From Stellaceae bacterium (GTDB lineage: Bacteria; Pseudomonadota; Alphaproteobacteria; ATCC43930; CGMCC-115725), in assembly GCA_035503615.1 (NCBI GenBank), contig DATJTI010000031.1, forward strand, positions 27,507 to 91,506: DNA of 64,000 nt. Reading direction: 5' to 3'. Under the pieces are notes generated by a model, which was not told the origin of the DNA, made no database searches, and saw nothing but the letters and a program-made list of their open reading frames with translations. The translations under genes were made by a program, and so were the position numbers. Position 1 is the stretch's first letter; every line of letters starts with the position of its first letter. Shown here one piece after another: positions 45,478 to 49,616 of this stretch.

Positions 45478-45888
45478 ATGTCGCTGCGAGAGAAATATCG
45501 AGGGGTTCTGTCGGGCATGGTTCCGCTCGGAGTGGCTGGTGTTGCGCTGCTGCTCGGCACCGCCGCACCCGCTGCCGCAGACCAGGAGATGAGTGCAGCA
45601 TCGGTGCGCGAAACTGCTTCGGTTCCGGTCTCGGCACGTCTCGCTGCCATTCGCGACGCCGTTTCCGATGTCGGCAGGACCGCAGCGAACTCGGCCGCAG
45701 CAAACTCGGCCGCAGCAAACTCGGATGAAGGGGCGACCCGGCTCGCCTGGTGGGCATGGCGCAATGGTGGCGGTGGCTGGCGCAATGGCGGTGGCGCCTG
45801 GGGCAATGGCGGTGCCCGTGCCTGGGGCAATGGCGGTGCCCGTGCCTGGGGCAATGGCGGCTGGCACAATTATTGGCGAAATTTCTGA
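45478..45888 (+). CDS. Precursor peptide A1: signal-peptide-bearing Trp/Asn/Gly-repeat protein (rSAM-associated Gly-rich-repeat, GrrA/OscA-like)
   Basis: 136 aa. GAGGCGG lies 6 nt before the ATG. The product has an n-h-c signal-like N-terminus, the leader box RLAAIRDAVSDV, and the core WWAWRNGGGGWRNGGGAWGNGGARAWGNGGARAWGNGGWHNYWRNF with 7 W-x-N triads. A paralog and an rSAM/SPASM gene lie directly downstream. Confidence 0.8.
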   Translation: MSLREKYRGVLSGMVPLGVAGVALLLGTAAPAAADQEMSAASVRETASVPVSARLAAIRDAVSDVGRTAANSAAANSAAANSDEGATRLAWWAWRNGGGGWRNGGGAWGNGGARAWGNGGARAWGNGGWHNYWRNF

Positions 45889-46045: not shown

Positions 46046-46426
46046 ATGTCGCTGCGGCAGAAGTATCTGGAGATCCTGTCGGCGATTGTGCCGGCCGGGG
46101 TGGTTGGCGTCTCGCTGCTGCTCGGCACGACGGCGCCTGGCGCTGCCAGCGAGGAGCCGGCTGCTGCCGAGCCTCTGGCCTCGCATCAAATGCGGGTGGC
46201 CGAGCGCCTCGCGGCGATCCGCGACGCGGTGTCGGATGTGGCCGCGAATGCCGCGGCCAAGGCTGGTGATGCTGCTGAGCCCGACAGCAAGGACCTGCGG
46301 CTCGCCTGGGGCAATTGGTGGCGCAACGGCGGCTGGGGCTATCGGCCGTGGGGCGGCTGGGGCTGGCCAAACTGGAACAATTGGCACAACTGGCACAATT
46401 GGAACAACTGGTGGCGGAACTGGTAG
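46046..46426 (+). CDS. Precursor peptide A2: paralog of A1 with an extremely Trp-rich core
   Basis: 126 aa with the same MSLR.KY start, signal-like segment and RLAAIRDAVSDV box. Between the paralogs, 8 of the 12 box codons differ, and all the differences are synonymous. The core is WGNWWRNGGWGYRPWGGWGWPNWNNWHNWHNWNNWWRNW, with 8 W-x-N triads. Confidence 0.82.
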   Translation: MSLRQKYLEILSAIVPAGVVGVSLLLGTTAPGAASEEPAAAEPLASHQMRVAERLAAIRDAVSDVAANAAAKAGDAAEPDSKDLRLAWGNWWRNGGWGYRPWGGWGWPNWNNWHNWHNWNNWWRNW

Positions 46427-46457: not shown

Positions 46458-47684
46458 GTGCCGGTGATTGACCTGCTGGTGGTCCAGCCGACCCCGTTCT
46501 GCAACATCGATTGCAAATATTGCTATCTGCCCGGCCGGAATTCAAAAGCGGTGGTGACGCCACAGACCCTCTGCAACCTGTTTACGCAGGTCTTCGCCTC
46601 GGGCTGGCTCGATGACCGGCTGTCGGTGGTGTGGCATGCCGGCGAGCCGATGGTGCTGCCGATCTCGTTCTACCGCGAGGCCTTCGCCATGATCGAGGCC
46701 CTGCGCCCGCGTGACGTGACGGTGGTCCACTCGTTCCAGACCAACGGCACCTTGATCGACGAGGCGTGGTGCCGCTTTTTTGCCGAGGTGCCGGTCAGTC
46801 TCGGGGTCAGCATCGACGGCCCGCAACATCTGCACGACCGCAACCGGGTGACGCGCGCCGGCCGCGGCACCTTTGAGCGCACGATCGCCGGCATCCGATT
46901 GCTGCGCAGCCATGCCGTGCCGTTCCACGTGATCTCGGTGCTGTCATCGGCCAGCATGGCCGTCCCGGCAGAGATGTTCGACTTCTACGTCGCCGAAGGG
47001 ATCGAGGAGGTCTGCTTCAACGTCGAGGAAAGCGAGGGCGACCACGTCTCCGAAGCGTTCGGCGAGGAGGGCGTCGAGACCGCCTTTGCCCGGTTCCTGG
47101 GTGAATTCTGGCACCTGTCGGCGGCCTCGCCCGGCAAGATCACGTTTCTGCGCGAGATCGAGCAAGCGCTGCAGCAGGTGATCCGCCCGAAGGAAGCGGT
47201 GTTCCGCAACCAGCTGGTCGAGCCGTTCGCGATCACCAGCATGGATTGGGCCGGCAACATCTCGACCTTTTCACCCGAATTGCTCGGTCTGAAGAACCCG
47301 GCCTATGACGATTTCATCCTCGGCAACATCAATCACGACACTTTGACCGATCTGCCGCACCGCCCGGCTTTCGCCCGGATGCTCGCCGATATCGATGCCG
47401 GTGTGGCGATGTGCCGCGAGGCTTGCGAGTATTTTTCGGTGTGCGGCGGCGGCGAGCCGGTCAACAAGCTCGCCGAGAACGGCACCTTTGCCAGCACCGA
47501 GACGACCTATTGCCGGCTGACCCGAATGCGGGTGACCGATCTCGTGCTCAACGCGCTGGAGCGGGCGCCAGTTGCGGCGCTCGATCCGGCCAGGATCGTG
47601 CTGGCCGAGATCGTGCCGGCCGAGATCGTACACGACACGATGTCGGCGCGCCGACCGCCTGAGGGTGTCGGCGCCGGTGGATAA
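46458..47684 (+). CDS. Radical SAM/SPASM peptide maturase (cyclophane-forming GrrM/OscB-like)
   Basis: The rSAM motif is QPTPFCNIDCKYCYLP (CxxxCxxC). The C-terminal SPASM-type Cys cluster is CREACEYFSVCGGGEP...TYC. The start lies 31 nt after the A2 stop. GTG 46458 (or 46464) was chosen because the ORF-track start at 46086 overlaps A2 in another frame. Confidence 0.85.
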   Translation: MPVIDLLVVQPTPFCNIDCKYCYLPGRNSKAVVTPQTLCNLFTQVFASGWLDDRLSVVWHAGEPMVLPISFYREAFAMIEALRPRDVTVVHSFQTNGTLIDEAWCRFFAEVPVSLGVSIDGPQHLHDRNRVTRAGRGTFERTIAGIRLLRSHAVPFHVISVLSSASMAVPAEMFDFYVAEGIEEVCFNVEESEGDHVSEAFGEEGVETAFARFLGEFWHLSAASPGKITFLREIEQALQQVIRPKEAVFRNQLVEPFAITSMDWAGNISTFSPELLGLKNPAYDDFILGNINHDTLTDLPHRPAFARMLADIDAGVAMCREACEYFSVCGGGEPVNKLAENGTFASTETTYCRLTRMRVTDLVLNALERAPVAALDPARIVLAEIVPAEIVHDTMSARRPPEGVGAGG

Positions 47685-47707: not shown

Positions 47708-48460
47708 ATGACCAAAACGTTGCGCTGGCTGGGCTTGCTCGCGCTCGGTGCCGCTCTGCAGACCGGGTTTGCGACGCTGGCCTCGGCCCAGTCGGGCGCC
47801 GGCGCTCCCGCCAGCATGTCGGCCGCCAACGCCAGCGGCCCGGAAGAGGGCTATGGTCCCGGCGCCGACCAGTCGGGCTTTGCCGAGCCGACCGAGATCG
47901 AGCCATCGACCGAACTGCCGGTGCTCTATGTCACCAGCGTCGAGATCATGCGCACGCAGACCCAGCCGCAGCTCGACATCGTGCGGGTGACGGGCCTGAC
48001 CGGAGCCCAAGGGTGGAGTTCACCGGAACTGGTTCCGACGTTTGTCGGCAAGCCGCTCGACGGCATCCTCGATTTGCAGTTCATCGCGACAATGCCGCTG
48101 CAGACCGAGGAGGCGACCGGCTTTGTCCCGATCAGTGCGGTGTTCCCGCTCGAAGCCGGTCATGATTTCAAGGGAGTGCGGGTGCGGGCCTCCGAGAATG
48201 CGATCGAGGTTGACCAGATCCCCGGCACCAAATCGATCAAGATCAACGTCAGCGGCTGCAAGGACTGTGTCGGCAAGAAATTTGCCGAGCGCGGTCAGGC
48301 CGCCCCGGGGACCCCCGGTGTGGTGCGCCAGGAAGATCTACCGAAGACGCTGCGCTGGATCCCGGTCAACCACGGCATCCGGGGTATCACCCACAATCCG
48401 AACCGGCTCAATCTGATGCTCGGGGCGGACAACACGATTCTTGCTGCCTATTGGGAGTAG
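47708..48460 (+). CDS. Secreted protein with a C-terminal peptidase-inhibitor-I78-like domain
   Basis: The signal peptide is MTKTLRWLGLLALGAALQTGFATLASAQ. A low-complexity linker and a beta-rich middle region follow. The C-terminus, CKDCVGKKF......LPKTLRWIPVNHGIRGITHNPNRLNLMLGADNTILAAYWE, fits the I78 pattern (C..C.G...R.I.P....T.D....RLN...D....I). The gene starts 23 nt after the rSAM stop. Confidence 0.5.
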   Translation: MTKTLRWLGLLALGAALQTGFATLASAQSGAGAPASMSAANASGPEEGYGPGADQSGFAEPTEIEPSTELPVLYVTSVEIMRTQTQPQLDIVRVTGLTGAQGWSSPELVPTFVGKPLDGILDLQFIATMPLQTEEATGFVPISAVFPLEAGHDFKGVRVRASENAIEVDQIPGTKSIKINVSGCKDCVGKKFAERGQAAPGTPGVVRQEDLPKTLRWIPVNHGIRGITHNPNRLNLMLGADNTILAAYWE

Positions 48461-49167
48461 CTCGCGACGACCGGACTGCTCGGCTCGGCGGTGGCCAACC
48501 GTGTCGAGCGCCGGCGGCTGCGCGCCGTGCGCTCGGACTGGTGGTGCTCTGCGGAATCGCCGGGTCCGGCCTGATCGTTGCCGTCACGCTCGGCTTCCTC
48601 GCCGGAGGCACGGCGCAGGCCAGCTCGCTTGGTGTGGCAGGCTCGGATGGTGTGACAGGCTCGCTTGTCGTCACCAACAGGGTTGCGCTCGATCGGGTGG
48701 CGCGTGCCGTCCTGGAGGCCGAGTCGAGCGACGGTGCCGATCCCGCCATGTGGCGGCCCGATCCTGACGGCCCGCAGGGGCCGATGCAGGTTTCCGCCGC
48801 GGCCGCCGCCGATGTCGGCAGTGGCGATCGCTTCGACCCGGCCGAAAATTTGCTGCTCGGCCGCGCCTATCTGGCCCGGCTCTATCGGCACTATGCCAAT
48901 TGGGCCGACGCGGTCGCGGCTTATGATTGGGGTCCCGCCCACATGGATAACTGGATCGAAAGCGGCCGGCCGATCGGCAAGCTGCCGCAAGCGGTGGCGT
49001 TCTATCGCATGCGCGTGCTGACGGGTGCGACCGCTTCCGGCGGCCATTTCGGCGTGGTCGGGCATCTGCAGCCGCGCCGGTCGCTGGCCGACCGCCGTCA
49101 TCCGAGCCGAGACAGCATCGCCGTCGAACAGATCTACGCCGCAATCATGGCCAAGGGCCGGCCTTGA
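48451..49167 (+). CDS. Lytic transglycosylase (SLT) domain protein with an N-terminal membrane anchor
   Basis: The TM/signal anchor is LGLVVLCGIAGSGLIVAVTLGFLAGG. The SLT blocks are VLEAESS (catalytic Glu), GPQGPMQVS and AVAAYDWGP. The TTG start overlaps the upstream stop, so the start is uncertain. Confidence 0.65.
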   Translation: MGVARDDRTARLGGGQPCRAPAAARRALGLVVLCGIAGSGLIVAVTLGFLAGGTAQASSLGVAGSDGVTGSLVVTNRVALDRVARAVLEAESSDGADPAMWRPDPDGPQGPMQVSAAAAADVGSGDRFDPAENLLLGRAYLARLYRHYANWADAVAAYDWGPAHMDNWIESGRPIGKLPQAVAFYRMRVLTGATASGGHFGVVGHLQPRRSLADRRHPSRDSIAVEQIYAAIMAKGRP

Positions 49168-49262
49168 ACCGGGTTGCGTCGCGGCGGGATGATCGCGCGA
49201 GGATCGGCGGTGTCGGGTGTGCAAGCGACGATCCAGGATCCAGTCAGCACGCCGCCAGCCTG

Positions 49263-49616
49263 ATGATGGGGGAAGCGATGACCAGCCTGGTCAAGACACT
49301 GCGCTCGCTCGGCAACCGACTGCAGGCCGGTGCCAGCATATGCCAGCTTTATGGTGAACCGGTCGAACAGGGTGGCCGCACGATCGTCCCGGTCGCGCGG
49401 ATGCGCTACGGATTTGGCGCCGGTGGCGGCAGCAAACATGGCGGCGGCGGCGCGGGAATCGATTTTCGTCCGGTCGGGCTGATCGAGATCAGCGACGATG
49501 GCACCCGGTTCGTTCCGCTGCACCGGCCGCTGCCGCTGATCCTCGCCCTGCTCGGCGGGTTGCTGCTCGGCTATAATCTCGGCCGCCGCGCCGGTCCTCG
49601 TGATCGCGGGAGGTAA
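49263..49616 (+). CDS. GerW/YtfJ-family protein
   Basis: The product includes LYGEPVEQGGRTIVPVARMRYGFGAGGGSKHGGGGAGIDFRPVGLIEISDDGTRFVPL, which matches the YtfJ/GerW signature, and ends in a C-terminal TM segment. The start is ATG 49263 or 49278. Confidence 0.65.
   Translation: MMGEAMTSLVKTLRSLGNRLQAGASICQLYGEPVEQGGRTIVPVARMRYGFGAGGGSKHGGGGAGIDFRPVGLIEISDDGTRFVPLHRPLPLILALLGGLLLGYNLGRRAGPRDRGR

What the first reader, a model, noticed from the sequence alone, without database searches (positions are those of the whole stretch)
45478..45747. The RiPP precursors carry Sec-type signal peptides and a leader box under clear purifying selection
Seen:
- Both precursors start MSLR(E/Q)KY, followed by a hydrophobic stretch ending in small residues (VPLGVAGVALLLGTAAPAAA in A1, VPAGVVGVSLLLGTTAPGAA in A2). 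This is an n-h-c signal-peptide layout.
- Between the signal and the core the paralogs diverge, except for RLAAIRDAVSDV (A1 nt 45637-45672, A2 nt 46205-46240). There, 8 of 12 codons differ, and all 8 differences are synonymous third-position changes.
- RLAW is shared at the leader/core junction.

Established knowledge: rSAM enzymes are cytoplasmic, and RiPP maturases usually dock on a short leader motif.

Inference: the box is the maturase recognition sequence. Modification would precede Sec export. Signal peptidase would replace a dedicated leader protease or exporter, so the product would be periplasmic or surface-exposed.
Basis: partly seen in the sequence, partly recalled or inferred. Interest (0 to 1): 0.6.

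Follow-up and report, generated by a model that had tools for sequence, protein, structure and literature searches.

The report
Export-signal-bearing triceptide precursors with leader box
Two small genes encode precursors of a known class of enzyme-stapled peptides (triceptides), but they carry a probable secretion signal in front of a conserved enzyme-docking motif, so the stapled product is probably sent to the cell envelope by the general Sec export route.

Summary
A1 (45478-45888) and A2 (46046-46426) start MSLR(E/Q)KY. A hydrophobic stretch follows and ends in small residues. Both share RLAAIRDAVSDV, where 8 of 12 codons differ and all 8 changes are synonymous.

The locus is a GrrA/OscA-type precursor pair plus a GrrM/OscB radical SAM maturase (TIGR04261, 415 bits). 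This is the known triceptide chemistry.

- **Export signal.** In 93 distinct relatives from 80 loci, the N-terminal 34 residues keep every signal-peptidase-I hallmark. No trained predictor was available, and nothing shows export directly.
- **Leader box.** The box is nearly invariant (pooled dN/dS 0.13, against 0.45-0.79 in the spacers). It recurs in GrrM-linked precursors of other phyla, including some with no signal peptide. It is therefore a GrrM-family leader motif, and the signal peptide is an add-on.
The predicted cut (after Ala34) lies 16-19 residues upstream of the box. Signal peptidase alone cannot release the core.
- **Conserved partner.** A secreted 250-aa protein follows the maturase in 80 of 83 loci. 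No transporter or protease recurs.

Sec-signal RiPPs (bufferins) and an rSAM-matured periplasmic effector (HxsA) are published precedents. This scan has already noted the same architecture in other genomes. I class it as a new variant of a known kind.

The parts
45478..45888 (+). Precursor A1 (136 aa), GrrA/OscA1-type. Seven W-x-N triads in the core.
   Evidence: ORF and translation. TIGR04260 scores 31 bits, exactly at its cut-off. 490 homologues found.
45478..45579 (+). A1 residues 1-34: signal-peptide-like segment (n-region MSLREKYRG, h-region, c-region APAAA). Predicted SPase I cut after Ala34.
   Evidence: Family column statistics. Charge and length statistics.
45637..45672 (+). A1 leader box RLAAIRDAVSDV (residues 54-65).
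   Evidence: R, L, A, A, I, R, A, V and S are each present in 88-93 of 93 relatives.
45739..45750 (+). A1 junction RLAW. The Trp is probably the first residue of the repeat core.
   Evidence: (Q/R)-L-A-W, with L 76/93, A 87/93 and W 87/93.
46046..46426 (+). Precursor A2 (126 aa), the maturase-proximal type found in essentially all related loci. Eight W-x-N triads.
   Evidence: No NCBIfam or Pfam hit.
46046..46147 (+). A2 residues 1-34: signal-peptide-like segment. Predicted cut after Ala34 (GAA|SEE).
   Evidence: The AF2 model gives helices 3-14 and 20-26, then disorder over 27-50.
46205..46240 (+). A2 leader box RLAAIRDAVSDV (residues 54-65).
   Evidence: Predicted helix 51-73 with pLDDT about 72, the best-defined part of the model.
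46298..46309 (+). A2 junction RLAW.
46458..47684 (+). GrrM/OscB-type radical SAM/SPASM cyclophane maturase (408 aa). CNIDCKYC motif, no signal peptide, no detectable RRE domain.
   Evidence: TIGR04261 scores 414.8 bits against a cut-off of 310. Pfam finds Radical_SAM only.
47708..48460 (+). Conserved secreted partner ('D250'). It has its own signal peptide (ASA|QS), a disordered linker, a beta-sandwich, and a C-terminal domain weakly like I78/CI2 protease inhibitors.
   Evidence: Present in 80 of 83 loci directly after the maturase. Alignment. AF2 mean pLDDT 81. Foldseek best hit is AFUEI, probability 0.96 but E = 0.2.
48451..49616 (+). Peripheral genes: an SLT-domain lytic transglycosylase and a YtfJ/GerW-family protein. 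They are not part of the conserved core.
   Evidence: Pfam SLT 1.3e-9 and Spore_YtfJ 3.9e-10. SLT is present in 39 and YtfJ in 8 of 83 loci.

Best explanation
A1 and A2 are tripartite precursors of a GrrM/OscB-type triceptide.

1. Residues 1-34 are a cleavable Sec-type signal peptide.
2. A variable spacer leads to the helical box (V)SERLAAIRDAVS. This box is the leader motif recognised by the cytoplasmic radical SAM enzyme.
3. A second variable spacer leads, through (Q/R)LAW, into a Trp-x-Asn repeat core. The enzyme cross-links each Trp to the Asn two residues on.

Modification happens in the cytoplasm on the unfolded precursor. The small three-residue rings leave the chain thin enough for SecYEG. 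The precursor is then exported post-translationally and cut after Ala34.

The exported species is a pro-peptide of about 90-100 residues that still carries the box. In the periplasm it meets the conserved secreted partner protein. It is either trimmed further by an unidentified protease or works as a small stapled protein.

**Shown here:** the sequence architecture, its conservation and selection pattern, family membership of the maturase, co-conservation of the secreted partner, and presence of LepB and SecB in the genome.

**Inferred:** export, the cleavage site, box-maturase docking, and the order of events.
For: **Maturase identity**
- TIGR04261 scores 415 bits against a cut-off of 310.
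- OscB is reported to make Trp-C7 to Asn/Asp-C-beta links in i/i+2 motifs (PMC11002830).
- The cores hold 7 and 8 W-x-N triads.

**Signal peptide**
- Length is 34 residues in 91/93 relatives.
- The n-region has a net charge of +2.3. The h-region is 18 residues with mean KD about 2.1-2.2.
- Pro at -4 occurs in 83/93. The -3 residue is A/G/S/V/T in 93/93, -2 is free, and -1 is Ala in 90/93. Pro was not among the eight commonest +1 residues, which together account for all 93.
- The early mature region has a net charge of 0 or below in 88/93.
- Four independent SP-bearing GrrM lineages all have AxA sites: Stellaceae, Acidobacteriota, Phaeobacter and alphaproteobacterium G048.

**Box**
- Pooled dN/dS is 0.13, against 0.45 and 0.79 in the spacers.
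- Pairwise identity is 83%, against 29-37% in the spacers.
- A BLOSUM best-window test against shuffles finds the box in Phaeobacter (p = 0.0005), Acidobacteriota (0.0005) and G048 (0.016).
- The same test finds it in the SP-less precursors of Nostoc (0.008), L097 (0.0005) and L099 (0.018). Nine SP-less precursors combined give p = 3.4e-5.

**Context**
- The secreted partner is present in 80/83 loci.
- No recurrent transporter or protease was found.
- LepB and SecB are present in the genome.

**Precedents**
- Bufferins are Sec-exported RiPPs cut at the predicted signal-peptidase site (PMC11626156).
- HxsA is an rSAM-matured periplasmic effector with a signal peptide (PMC13128918).
Against: - No trained predictor (SignalP, DeepSig, Phobius) could be run, and there are no experimental data.
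- The 18-residue h-region sits at the upper limit for signal peptides. An uncleaved signal-anchor is therefore possible.
- The SP-like region is more conserved (61% pairwise identity) than the partner's bona fide signal peptide in the same genomes (46%). Y7, G18, G21, L26 and G27 are nearly invariant. This hints at a function beyond targeting.
- The bufferin authors note that macrocyclic peptides may be poor SecY substrates.
- Three of nine SP-less precursors show no detectable box.
- The box helix is not significantly amphipathic.
- The AF2 model of A2 is of low confidence.
- The maturase has no detectable RRE domain, so the docking site is unknown.
Confidence: 0.55

Rival explanations
1. The N-terminal segment is an uncleaved signal-anchor. 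The precursor inserts N-in/C-out and the stapled Trp-rich tail stays tethered to the inner membrane, facing the periplasm.
For: The uncharged stretch I10-A34 is 25 residues long, with an 18-residue hydrophobic core of mean KD about 2.1-2.2. G18, G21 and G27 are conserved, which is a packing-like pattern and unusual for a signal peptide. The segment is more conserved than the partner's signal peptide.
Against: Selection pattern at positions 31-35 matches an SPase I site exactly: Pro at -4, small at -3, free at -2, Ala at -1 in 90/93. Pro16 and three glycines break the helix. A disordered acidic region follows.
Confidence: 0.17
2. The hydrophobic N-terminus is not an export signal. It is part of the leader that the maturase or a cytoplasmic partner binds. 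The product stays in the cell or leaves by an unlinked transporter.
For: Sequence conservation is unusually high for a signal peptide: MSLRQKY, with Y7 invariant. The n-region is predicted helical with pLDDT about 70. In bufferins a leader role overlapping the signal peptide could not be excluded.
Against: Many GrrM systems have precursors with no such segment, so the enzyme family does not need it. The charge distribution and the -3/-1 pattern are those of export signals. The conserved third gene encodes a secreted protein.
Confidence: 0.1
3. The box is not the maturase docking site. It could be a pro-region element acting after export, for example recognised by the secreted partner or a processing protease. 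It could also be an intramolecular chaperone for the Trp-rich core.
For: The box remains attached after the predicted signal-peptidase cut. It is strongest in SP-bearing lineages. The maturase has no RRE domain. In bufferins, recognition involves the core rather than the N-terminal sequence.
Against: A significant box match is present in SP-less precursors that have no secreted partner: Nostoc, L097 and L099. In those precursors it sits at the extreme N-terminus, in the position of a classical leader.
Confidence: 0.15

Closest known systems
OscA/OscB = GrrA/GrrM triceptide system (NCBIfam TIGR04260/TIGR04261; three-residue cyclophane-forming rSAM enzymes)
   Same: The maturase is a clear family member (415 bits). 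The cores are built of aromatic-x-Asn triads, the motif OscB cross-links (PMC11002830). A1 reaches the GrrA model's cut-off.
   Different: - A2 does not match the GrrA model.
- The precursors are tripartite, with a 34-residue export-signal-like N-terminus.
- The third conserved gene is an unnamed secreted protein with no NCBIfam or Pfam hit.
- In this family the cassette sits among housekeeping genes (RNase J, epimerase, Tag).
- Sampled cyanobacterial, Chloroflexota, actinobacterial and Bacillus GrrM precursors have no signal peptide.
Bufferins (MNIO-modified RiPPs with Sec signal peptides; PMC11626156)
   Same: The precursor carries an N-terminal Sec signal. Modification is by a cytoplasmic enzyme. 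Export uses the general Sec route with no dedicated transporter. The product is periplasmic and is a small protein rather than a short peptide.
   Different: The enzyme class differs (MNIO/DUF692 plus DUF2063, against radical SAM/SPASM), as does the chemistry (thiooxazoles on Cys, against Trp-Asn cyclophanes). In bufferins the signal peptide abuts the core. Here a separate leader box of about 50 residues lies between the signal and the core.
HXS system: HxsA matured by rSAM enzymes and active in the periplasm (PMC13128918)
   Same: A repeat-containing substrate with a signal peptide is modified by cytoplasmic radical SAM/SPASM-type enzymes and then works in the periplasm.
   Different: The repeats (His-x-Ser), enzymes (HxsB/C/D) and accessory domains (peptidoglycan-binding) all differ. 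HxsA processing was reported as non-canonical and dependent on the other Hxs proteins. Nothing here suggests an anti-phage role.
Anaerobic sulfatase-maturating enzymes acting on Sec-exported sulfatases
   Same: A SPASM radical SAM enzyme (next-best family hit, TIGR03942, 165 bits) modifies an unfolded, signal-peptide-bearing substrate in the cytoplasm before Sec export. This rests on established knowledge and was not tested here.
   Different: The substrate there is a large enzyme and the change is a single Cys/Ser oxidation. There is no leader box and no repeats.

Membership tests
GrrM/OscB cyclophane-forming radical SAM/SPASM maturase (TIGR04261) | Full-length match above the curated cut-off (310 bits). 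| tested here: met
   414.8 bits over profile positions 1-363. Confirmed on the genome.
GrrM/OscB cyclophane-forming radical SAM/SPASM maturase (TIGR04261) | CxxxCxxC radical SAM cluster motif. | tested here: met
   CNIDCKYC near the N-terminus. Pfam Radical_SAM 3.5e-14.
GrrM/OscB cyclophane-forming radical SAM/SPASM maturase (TIGR04261) | Catalyses aromatic-C to C-beta cross-links at i/i+2. | not testable with these tools
   Needs co-expression followed by MS/NMR.
GrrA/OscA1 precursor (TIGR04260) | Match at or above the curated cut-off (31 bits). | tested here: inconclusive
   A1 scores 31 bits, exactly at the cut-off. A2 has no hit. Many relatives carry the IMG label 'rSAM-associated Gly-rich repeat protein'.
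Triceptide precursor | Repeated aromatic-x-(Asn/Asp/Arg/Ser) three-residue motifs in the core, next to a 3-CyFE gene. | tested here: met
   Seven (A1) and eight (A2) W-x-N triads. The maturase starts 31 nt downstream of A2.
Sec / signal peptidase I signal peptide | Positively charged n-region, hydrophobic h-region, polar c-region. | tested here: met
   The n-region has a net charge of +2.3. The h-region is 18 residues with mean KD about 2.1-2.2. The c-region is TTAPGAA or TAAPAAA.
Sec / signal peptidase I signal peptide | Small neutral residues at -3 and -1, and no Pro at +1. | tested here: met
   -1 is Ala in 90/93. -3 is A/G/S/V/T in 93/93. The eight commonest +1 residues (S, N, D, A, E, K, R, T) account for all 93, with no Pro.
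Sec / signal peptidase I signal peptide | Call by a trained predictor (SignalP, Phobius) and demonstrated export and cleavage. | not testable with these tools
   No such predictor or experiment was available. Only hand-made criteria were applied.
Tat signal peptide | Twin-arginine motif (S/T-R-R-x-F-L-K) before the h-region. | tested here: not met
   The n-region is MSLR(E/Q)KY, with a single Arg at position 4 in 82/93. No conserved RR.
Lipoprotein (SPase II) signal | Lipobox with an invariant Cys at +1. | tested here: not met
   There is no Cys anywhere in A1 or A2.
GRRM system with GrrP orphan binding protein | The third gene is a GrrP-type extracellular solute-binding-like protein. | tested here: not met
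   The 250-aa partner has no NCBIfam or Pfam hit at all. Its fold is a beta-sandwich plus an I78/CI2-like domain. That GrrP defines the cyanobacterial cassette comes from memory and an earlier scan note, and was not checked here.
Bufferin-type Sec-exported RiPP | MNIO (DUF692) modifying enzyme with a DUF2063 partner, and Cys-containing precursors. | tested here: not met
   The precursors have no Cys. The neighbouring genes are rSAM, D250, SLT and YtfJ. This system resembles bufferins only in its export logic.

The most novel reading that the evidence does not exclude
The strictly 34-residue, unusually conserved signal peptide (invariant Y7 and L26; near-invariant G18, G21 and G27) may be more than a targeting tag. 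It could be a timing or coupling device, analogous to extended signal peptide regions, that holds the precursor until the radical SAM enzyme, docked on the box, has stapled all Trp-x-Asn units. The exported product would then be a periplasmic 'Trp-ladder' mini-protein of about 90 residues. It would work together with the conserved secreted beta-sandwich/I78-like partner in a cell-envelope function that is part of the core genome of Stellaceae, rather than acting as an antibiotic.
Probability: 0.15. Interest if true: 0.7.

Novelty: new variant of a known kind. Interest (0 to 1): 0.45.

Why it matters
Triceptides have been treated as classical leader-plus-core natural products whose biological roles are unknown. 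A large, vertically inherited soil-bacterial branch carries three features together: a general-secretion signal, a separate enzyme-docking box, and a dedicated secreted partner.

- **Biology.** This points to a periplasmic or envelope function rather than a secreted antibiotic.
- **Engineering.** It gives a simple modular rule (signal, then box, then core) for predicting and engineering GrrM substrates.
- **Precedent.** It would extend Sec-dependent RiPP export, so far shown for MNIO-modified bufferins, to radical-SAM cyclophane peptides. It would also test whether small side-chain macrocycles pass SecYEG.
- **Genome mining.** The box consensus R-[LIV]-x-x-[LI]-R-x-[AS]-[VL]-[ST] is a practical handle for finding unannotated GrrM precursors.

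Tried and rejected
- **Short HMM of the box.** I searched a box-only HMM against divergent precursors. It was insensitive: it even missed the obvious Phaeobacter box. I replaced it with a BLOSUM62 best-window test against shuffles.
- **Amphipathic helix.** The hydrophobic moment of the box is 0.34, and 39% of shuffles reach that value. I dropped the claim.
- **First signal-peptide heuristic.** It merged the Ala-rich c-region into the h-region and crashed. I used alignment column statistics instead.
- **Moderate h-region hydrophobicity as an argument for SecB routing.** The h-region is in fact more hydrophobic than the partner's signal peptide. I did not use this argument.
- **Phaeobacter upstream secreted protein as a D250 homologue.** BLASTP gave E = 0.024. 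hhalign gave E = 0.005 but probability 7.5%. This is unproven.
- **Reaching canonical cyanobacterial GrrA/GrrP cassettes.** Plasmid records have no relatives in the genome search, and one look-up found nothing. The canonical Gly-rich GrrA was therefore not examined.
- **Literature.** Nguyen et al. 2020 (Nat Chem) is not held. No held paper links triceptides with signal peptides. The GrrA/GrrM term search returned only unrelated acronyms.
- **Promoter and terminator scan.** Uninformative.
- **GrrM tree.** It does not resolve whether SP-bearing lineages are monophyletic.

Full report
**What is in the sequence.**
A1 (45478-45888, 136 aa) and A2 (46046-46426, 126 aa) are real, co-directional ORFs. 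Each has GAGG 8 nt upstream of its ATG. Both begin MSLR(E/Q)KY. The quoted hydrophobic strings are exact.

The box RLAAIRDAVSDV lies at the stated coordinates. Eight of its 12 codons differ, all by synonymous third-position changes. Within this paralog pair the box has Sd/Nd = 8/0, against 11/31 in the two flanking spacers (Fisher p = 1.4e-4). Because synonymous sites have diverged heavily, the amino-acid identity is held by selection and not by recent gene conversion. RLAW is shared at the junction (45739-45750 and 46298-46309).

**What the locus is.**
The ORF 31 nt downstream (46458-47684) matches the GrrM/OscB cyclophane-forming radical SAM/SPASM maturase at 414.8 bits, against a cut-off of 310. 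A1 reaches the GrrA/OscA1 precursor model exactly at its cut-off (31 bits). A2 has no hit. OscB is reported to link Trp-C7 to the C-beta of Asn or Asp two residues on (PMC11002830). The cores carry 7 and 8 W-x-N triads. So the chemistry belongs to a known kind, the triceptides. The genome holds only these two precursors.

**Relatives.**
A1 has 490 database homologues. A scan of species-representative genomes with the maturase returned 80 loci. Almost all are Stellaceae or unclassified alphaproteobacterial soil MAGs, plus Acidobacteriota.

The conserved cassette has three parts: one or two precursors, the maturase, and a 250-aa protein (window 47708-48460). That protein is found in 80 of 83 loci. 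In most Stellaceae the cassette sits between RNase J, methylmalonyl-CoA epimerase and Tag upstream and an SLT transglycosylase downstream. It looks vertically inherited. No transporter or protease recurs, including in loci with different neighbours.

**The N-terminal segment.**
I used 93 distinct full-length precursors.

- The segment up to the predicted cleavage point is 34 residues in 91/93.
- The first 13 residues carry a net +2.3 charge.
- The h-region is about 18 residues.
- Pro31 is present in 83/93.
- Position 32 is always A, G, S, V or T.
- Position 33 is free and includes Asp and Asn.
- Position 34 is Ala in 90/93.
- The residues listed at +1 are S, N, D, A, E, K, R and T, which account for all 93; none is Pro.
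- The next six residues have a net charge of 0 or below in 88/93.

Small at -3, free at -2 and Ala at -1 is the signal-peptidase-I signature. There is no twin-arginine motif and no Cys, so the Tat and lipoprotein routes are excluded. LepB and SecB are encoded elsewhere in the genome. The maturase has no signal peptide.

I could not run SignalP or any trained predictor. The call therefore rests on these criteria alone.

Two cautions apply. First, the h-region is long enough for a signal-anchor. Second, the segment is more conserved than the partner protein's own signal peptide in the same 24 genomes (61% against 46% pairwise identity). Y7 and L26 are invariant, and G18, G21 and G27 nearly so.

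**The box.**
Across the family R54, L55, A56, A57, I58, R59, A61, V62 and S63 are each present in 88-93 of 93 sequences. Pooled Nei-Gojobori dN/dS by region:

| Region | dN/dS |
|---|---|
| box | 0.13 |
| core | 0.12 |
| n-region | 0.22 |
| h-region | 0.28 |
| c-region | 0.38 |
| spacer 1 | 0.45 |
| spacer 2 | 0.79 |

dS is about 1, so the ratios are approximate. AF2 predicts the box as the best-defined helix of an otherwise poorly defined model (residues 51-73, pLDDT about 72). It is not significantly amphipathic.

**Is the box tied to the maturase or to export?**
I examined GrrM-annotated loci outside the Stellaceae.

- **Signal-bearing precursors, each with an AxA site:** Phaeobacter plasmids (AARLETIRQSVTDF), an Acidobacteriota MAG (AARLGEIRAAVSAI), and another alphaproteobacterium with an F-P-N repeat core (IARLSAIRTAYLSA).
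- **Signal-less precursors:** a Nostoc plasmid, Nodularia, Herpetosiphon, Solwaraspora, a Bacillus plasmid, and four metagenomic or MAG loci.

A best-window BLOSUM62 match of SERLAAIRDAVSDV, judged against 2000 shuffles of each precursor, gave these results:

| Precursor | p |
|---|---|
| Phaeobacter | 0.0005 |
| Acidobacteriota | 0.0005 |
| G048 | 0.016 |
| Nostoc | 0.008 |
| L097 (QQRLSSIRAAVSTA) | 0.0005 |
| L099 | 0.018 |
| three others | 0.055-0.069 (marginal) |
| Nodularia, Solwaraspora, Bacillus | not significant |

The nine signal-less precursors combined give p = 3.4e-5. Where the match is found in signal-less precursors it lies at residues 7-18, the position of a classical leader.

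So the box travels with GrrM whether or not a signal peptide is present. This supports a role as the maturase's recognition motif and marks the signal peptide as an optional N-terminal module. On a GrrM tree the sampled signal-less systems form one clade. The signal-bearing ones are not resolved as a single group. The sampling of signal-less systems was biased, because they were found by similarity to the Nostoc enzyme.

The predicted signal-peptidase cut after residue 34 lies 16-19 residues upstream of the box. After export, a pro-region of 54 (A1) or 51 (A2) residues, box included, is still attached to a 48- or 41-residue core. Signal peptidase can replace a dedicated exporter, but it cannot by itself act as the leader protease. 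Either another protease trims the exported pro-peptide, or the functional product is a stapled mini-protein of about 90-100 residues, as with bufferins.

**The secreted partner.**
The 250-aa protein has a typical, poorly conserved signal peptide (ASA|QS) and a disordered linker. It then has a confidently modelled beta-sandwich and a small C-terminal domain (mean pLDDT 81). The best structural match is the I78 elastase inhibitor AFUEI, followed by CI2/eglin-type inhibitors. The E-values are weak (0.2 and above). It has no Pfam or NCBIfam hit. Its strict co-occurrence with signal-bearing precursors is indirect support for a periplasmic destination. Phaeobacter has a different or very divergent secreted protein upstream; homology is unproven. 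The G048 locus has none nearby.

**Comparison with what is known.**
- The bufferin paper describes Sec signal peptides as rare in bacterial RiPP precursors. It shows export and cleavage at the predicted signal-peptidase site for those MNIO-modified peptides. It also cautions that macrocycles may hinder SecY passage (PMC11626156).
- HxsA is an rSAM-matured effector with a signal peptide that acts in the periplasm (PMC13128918).
- Anaerobic sulfatase maturases are the next-closest enzyme family here. They modify Sec substrates before export. This is established knowledge and was not tested here.
- No held paper connects triceptides with signal peptides, and the original triceptide paper is not held. 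I therefore cannot exclude that the feature was noted there.
- Earlier reports of this scan describe the same exported-precursor architecture and a secreted partner in other genomes.

**Verdict.**
The locus is a new variant of a known kind: a GrrM/OscB triceptide cassette whose precursors are modular (Sec-type signal, GrrM leader box, Trp-x-Asn core) and which carries a dedicated secreted partner. Export, the cleavage site and box-dependent recognition remain inferences. Simple experiments would settle them.

Noticed in passing
window 47708-48460: A 250-aa secreted protein with no family assignment follows the maturase in 80 of 83 related loci. The AF2 model shows a beta-sandwich plus a C-terminal domain whose best, weak structural matches are the I78 inhibitor AFUEI and CI2/eglin.
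   Followed up: partly
window 45478-45579 and 46046-46147: The signal-peptide-like segment has a fixed length (34 aa in 91/93). Y7 and L26 are invariant, and G18, G21 and G27 nearly so. It is more conserved (61%) than the neighbouring partner's signal peptide (46%). This suggests a role beyond targeting.
   Followed up: partly
L028:5131-5967: One relative's A2-type precursor has a greatly expanded run of back-to-back W-N-N triads (NWNNWNNWNN..., more than ten units). This shows repeat-number instability of the core.
   Followed up: no
L020:5049-5501; L042:4879-5373; L072:4981-5397: In several relatives the upstream (A1-type) precursor copy is frameshifted or truncated inside the Gly/Trp repeat, while the maturase-proximal copy is intact. 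This is either decay of the second paralog or assembly error in the repeat.
   Followed up: no
L087:1171-1455: In an alphaproteobacterial genome (G048), a GrrM-linked precursor with a signal peptide and a box-like motif has a core made of F-P-N repeats (FPNFPNFNNFPNFPNF...), a Phe-based counterpart of the Trp ladder.
   Followed up: no
L083, L085, L090, L091, L097: Signal-less GrrM clusters (Nostoc, Streptomyces, Nodularia, Herpetosiphon and a metagenomic contig) carry a conserved protein of about 260-320 aa downstream (upstream in the Streptomyces locus L085), with a shared YxAPTExxxHDGST motif. In some of them Pfam finds 2OG-Fe(II) oxygenase hits, suggesting a second tailoring step that is absent from the window's cassette.
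   Followed up: no
G000:C14:13756-14253 (locus L002): The genome holds a second radical SAM/SPASM-like gene that matches the GrrM model only weakly (52 bits). Its function was not examined.
   Followed up: no
window 48451-49616: An SLT lytic transglycosylase overlaps the stop codon of the partner gene and a YtfJ/GerW-family protein follows. They are present in only 39 and 8 of 83 loci, so they are probably not core to the system.
   Followed up: partly
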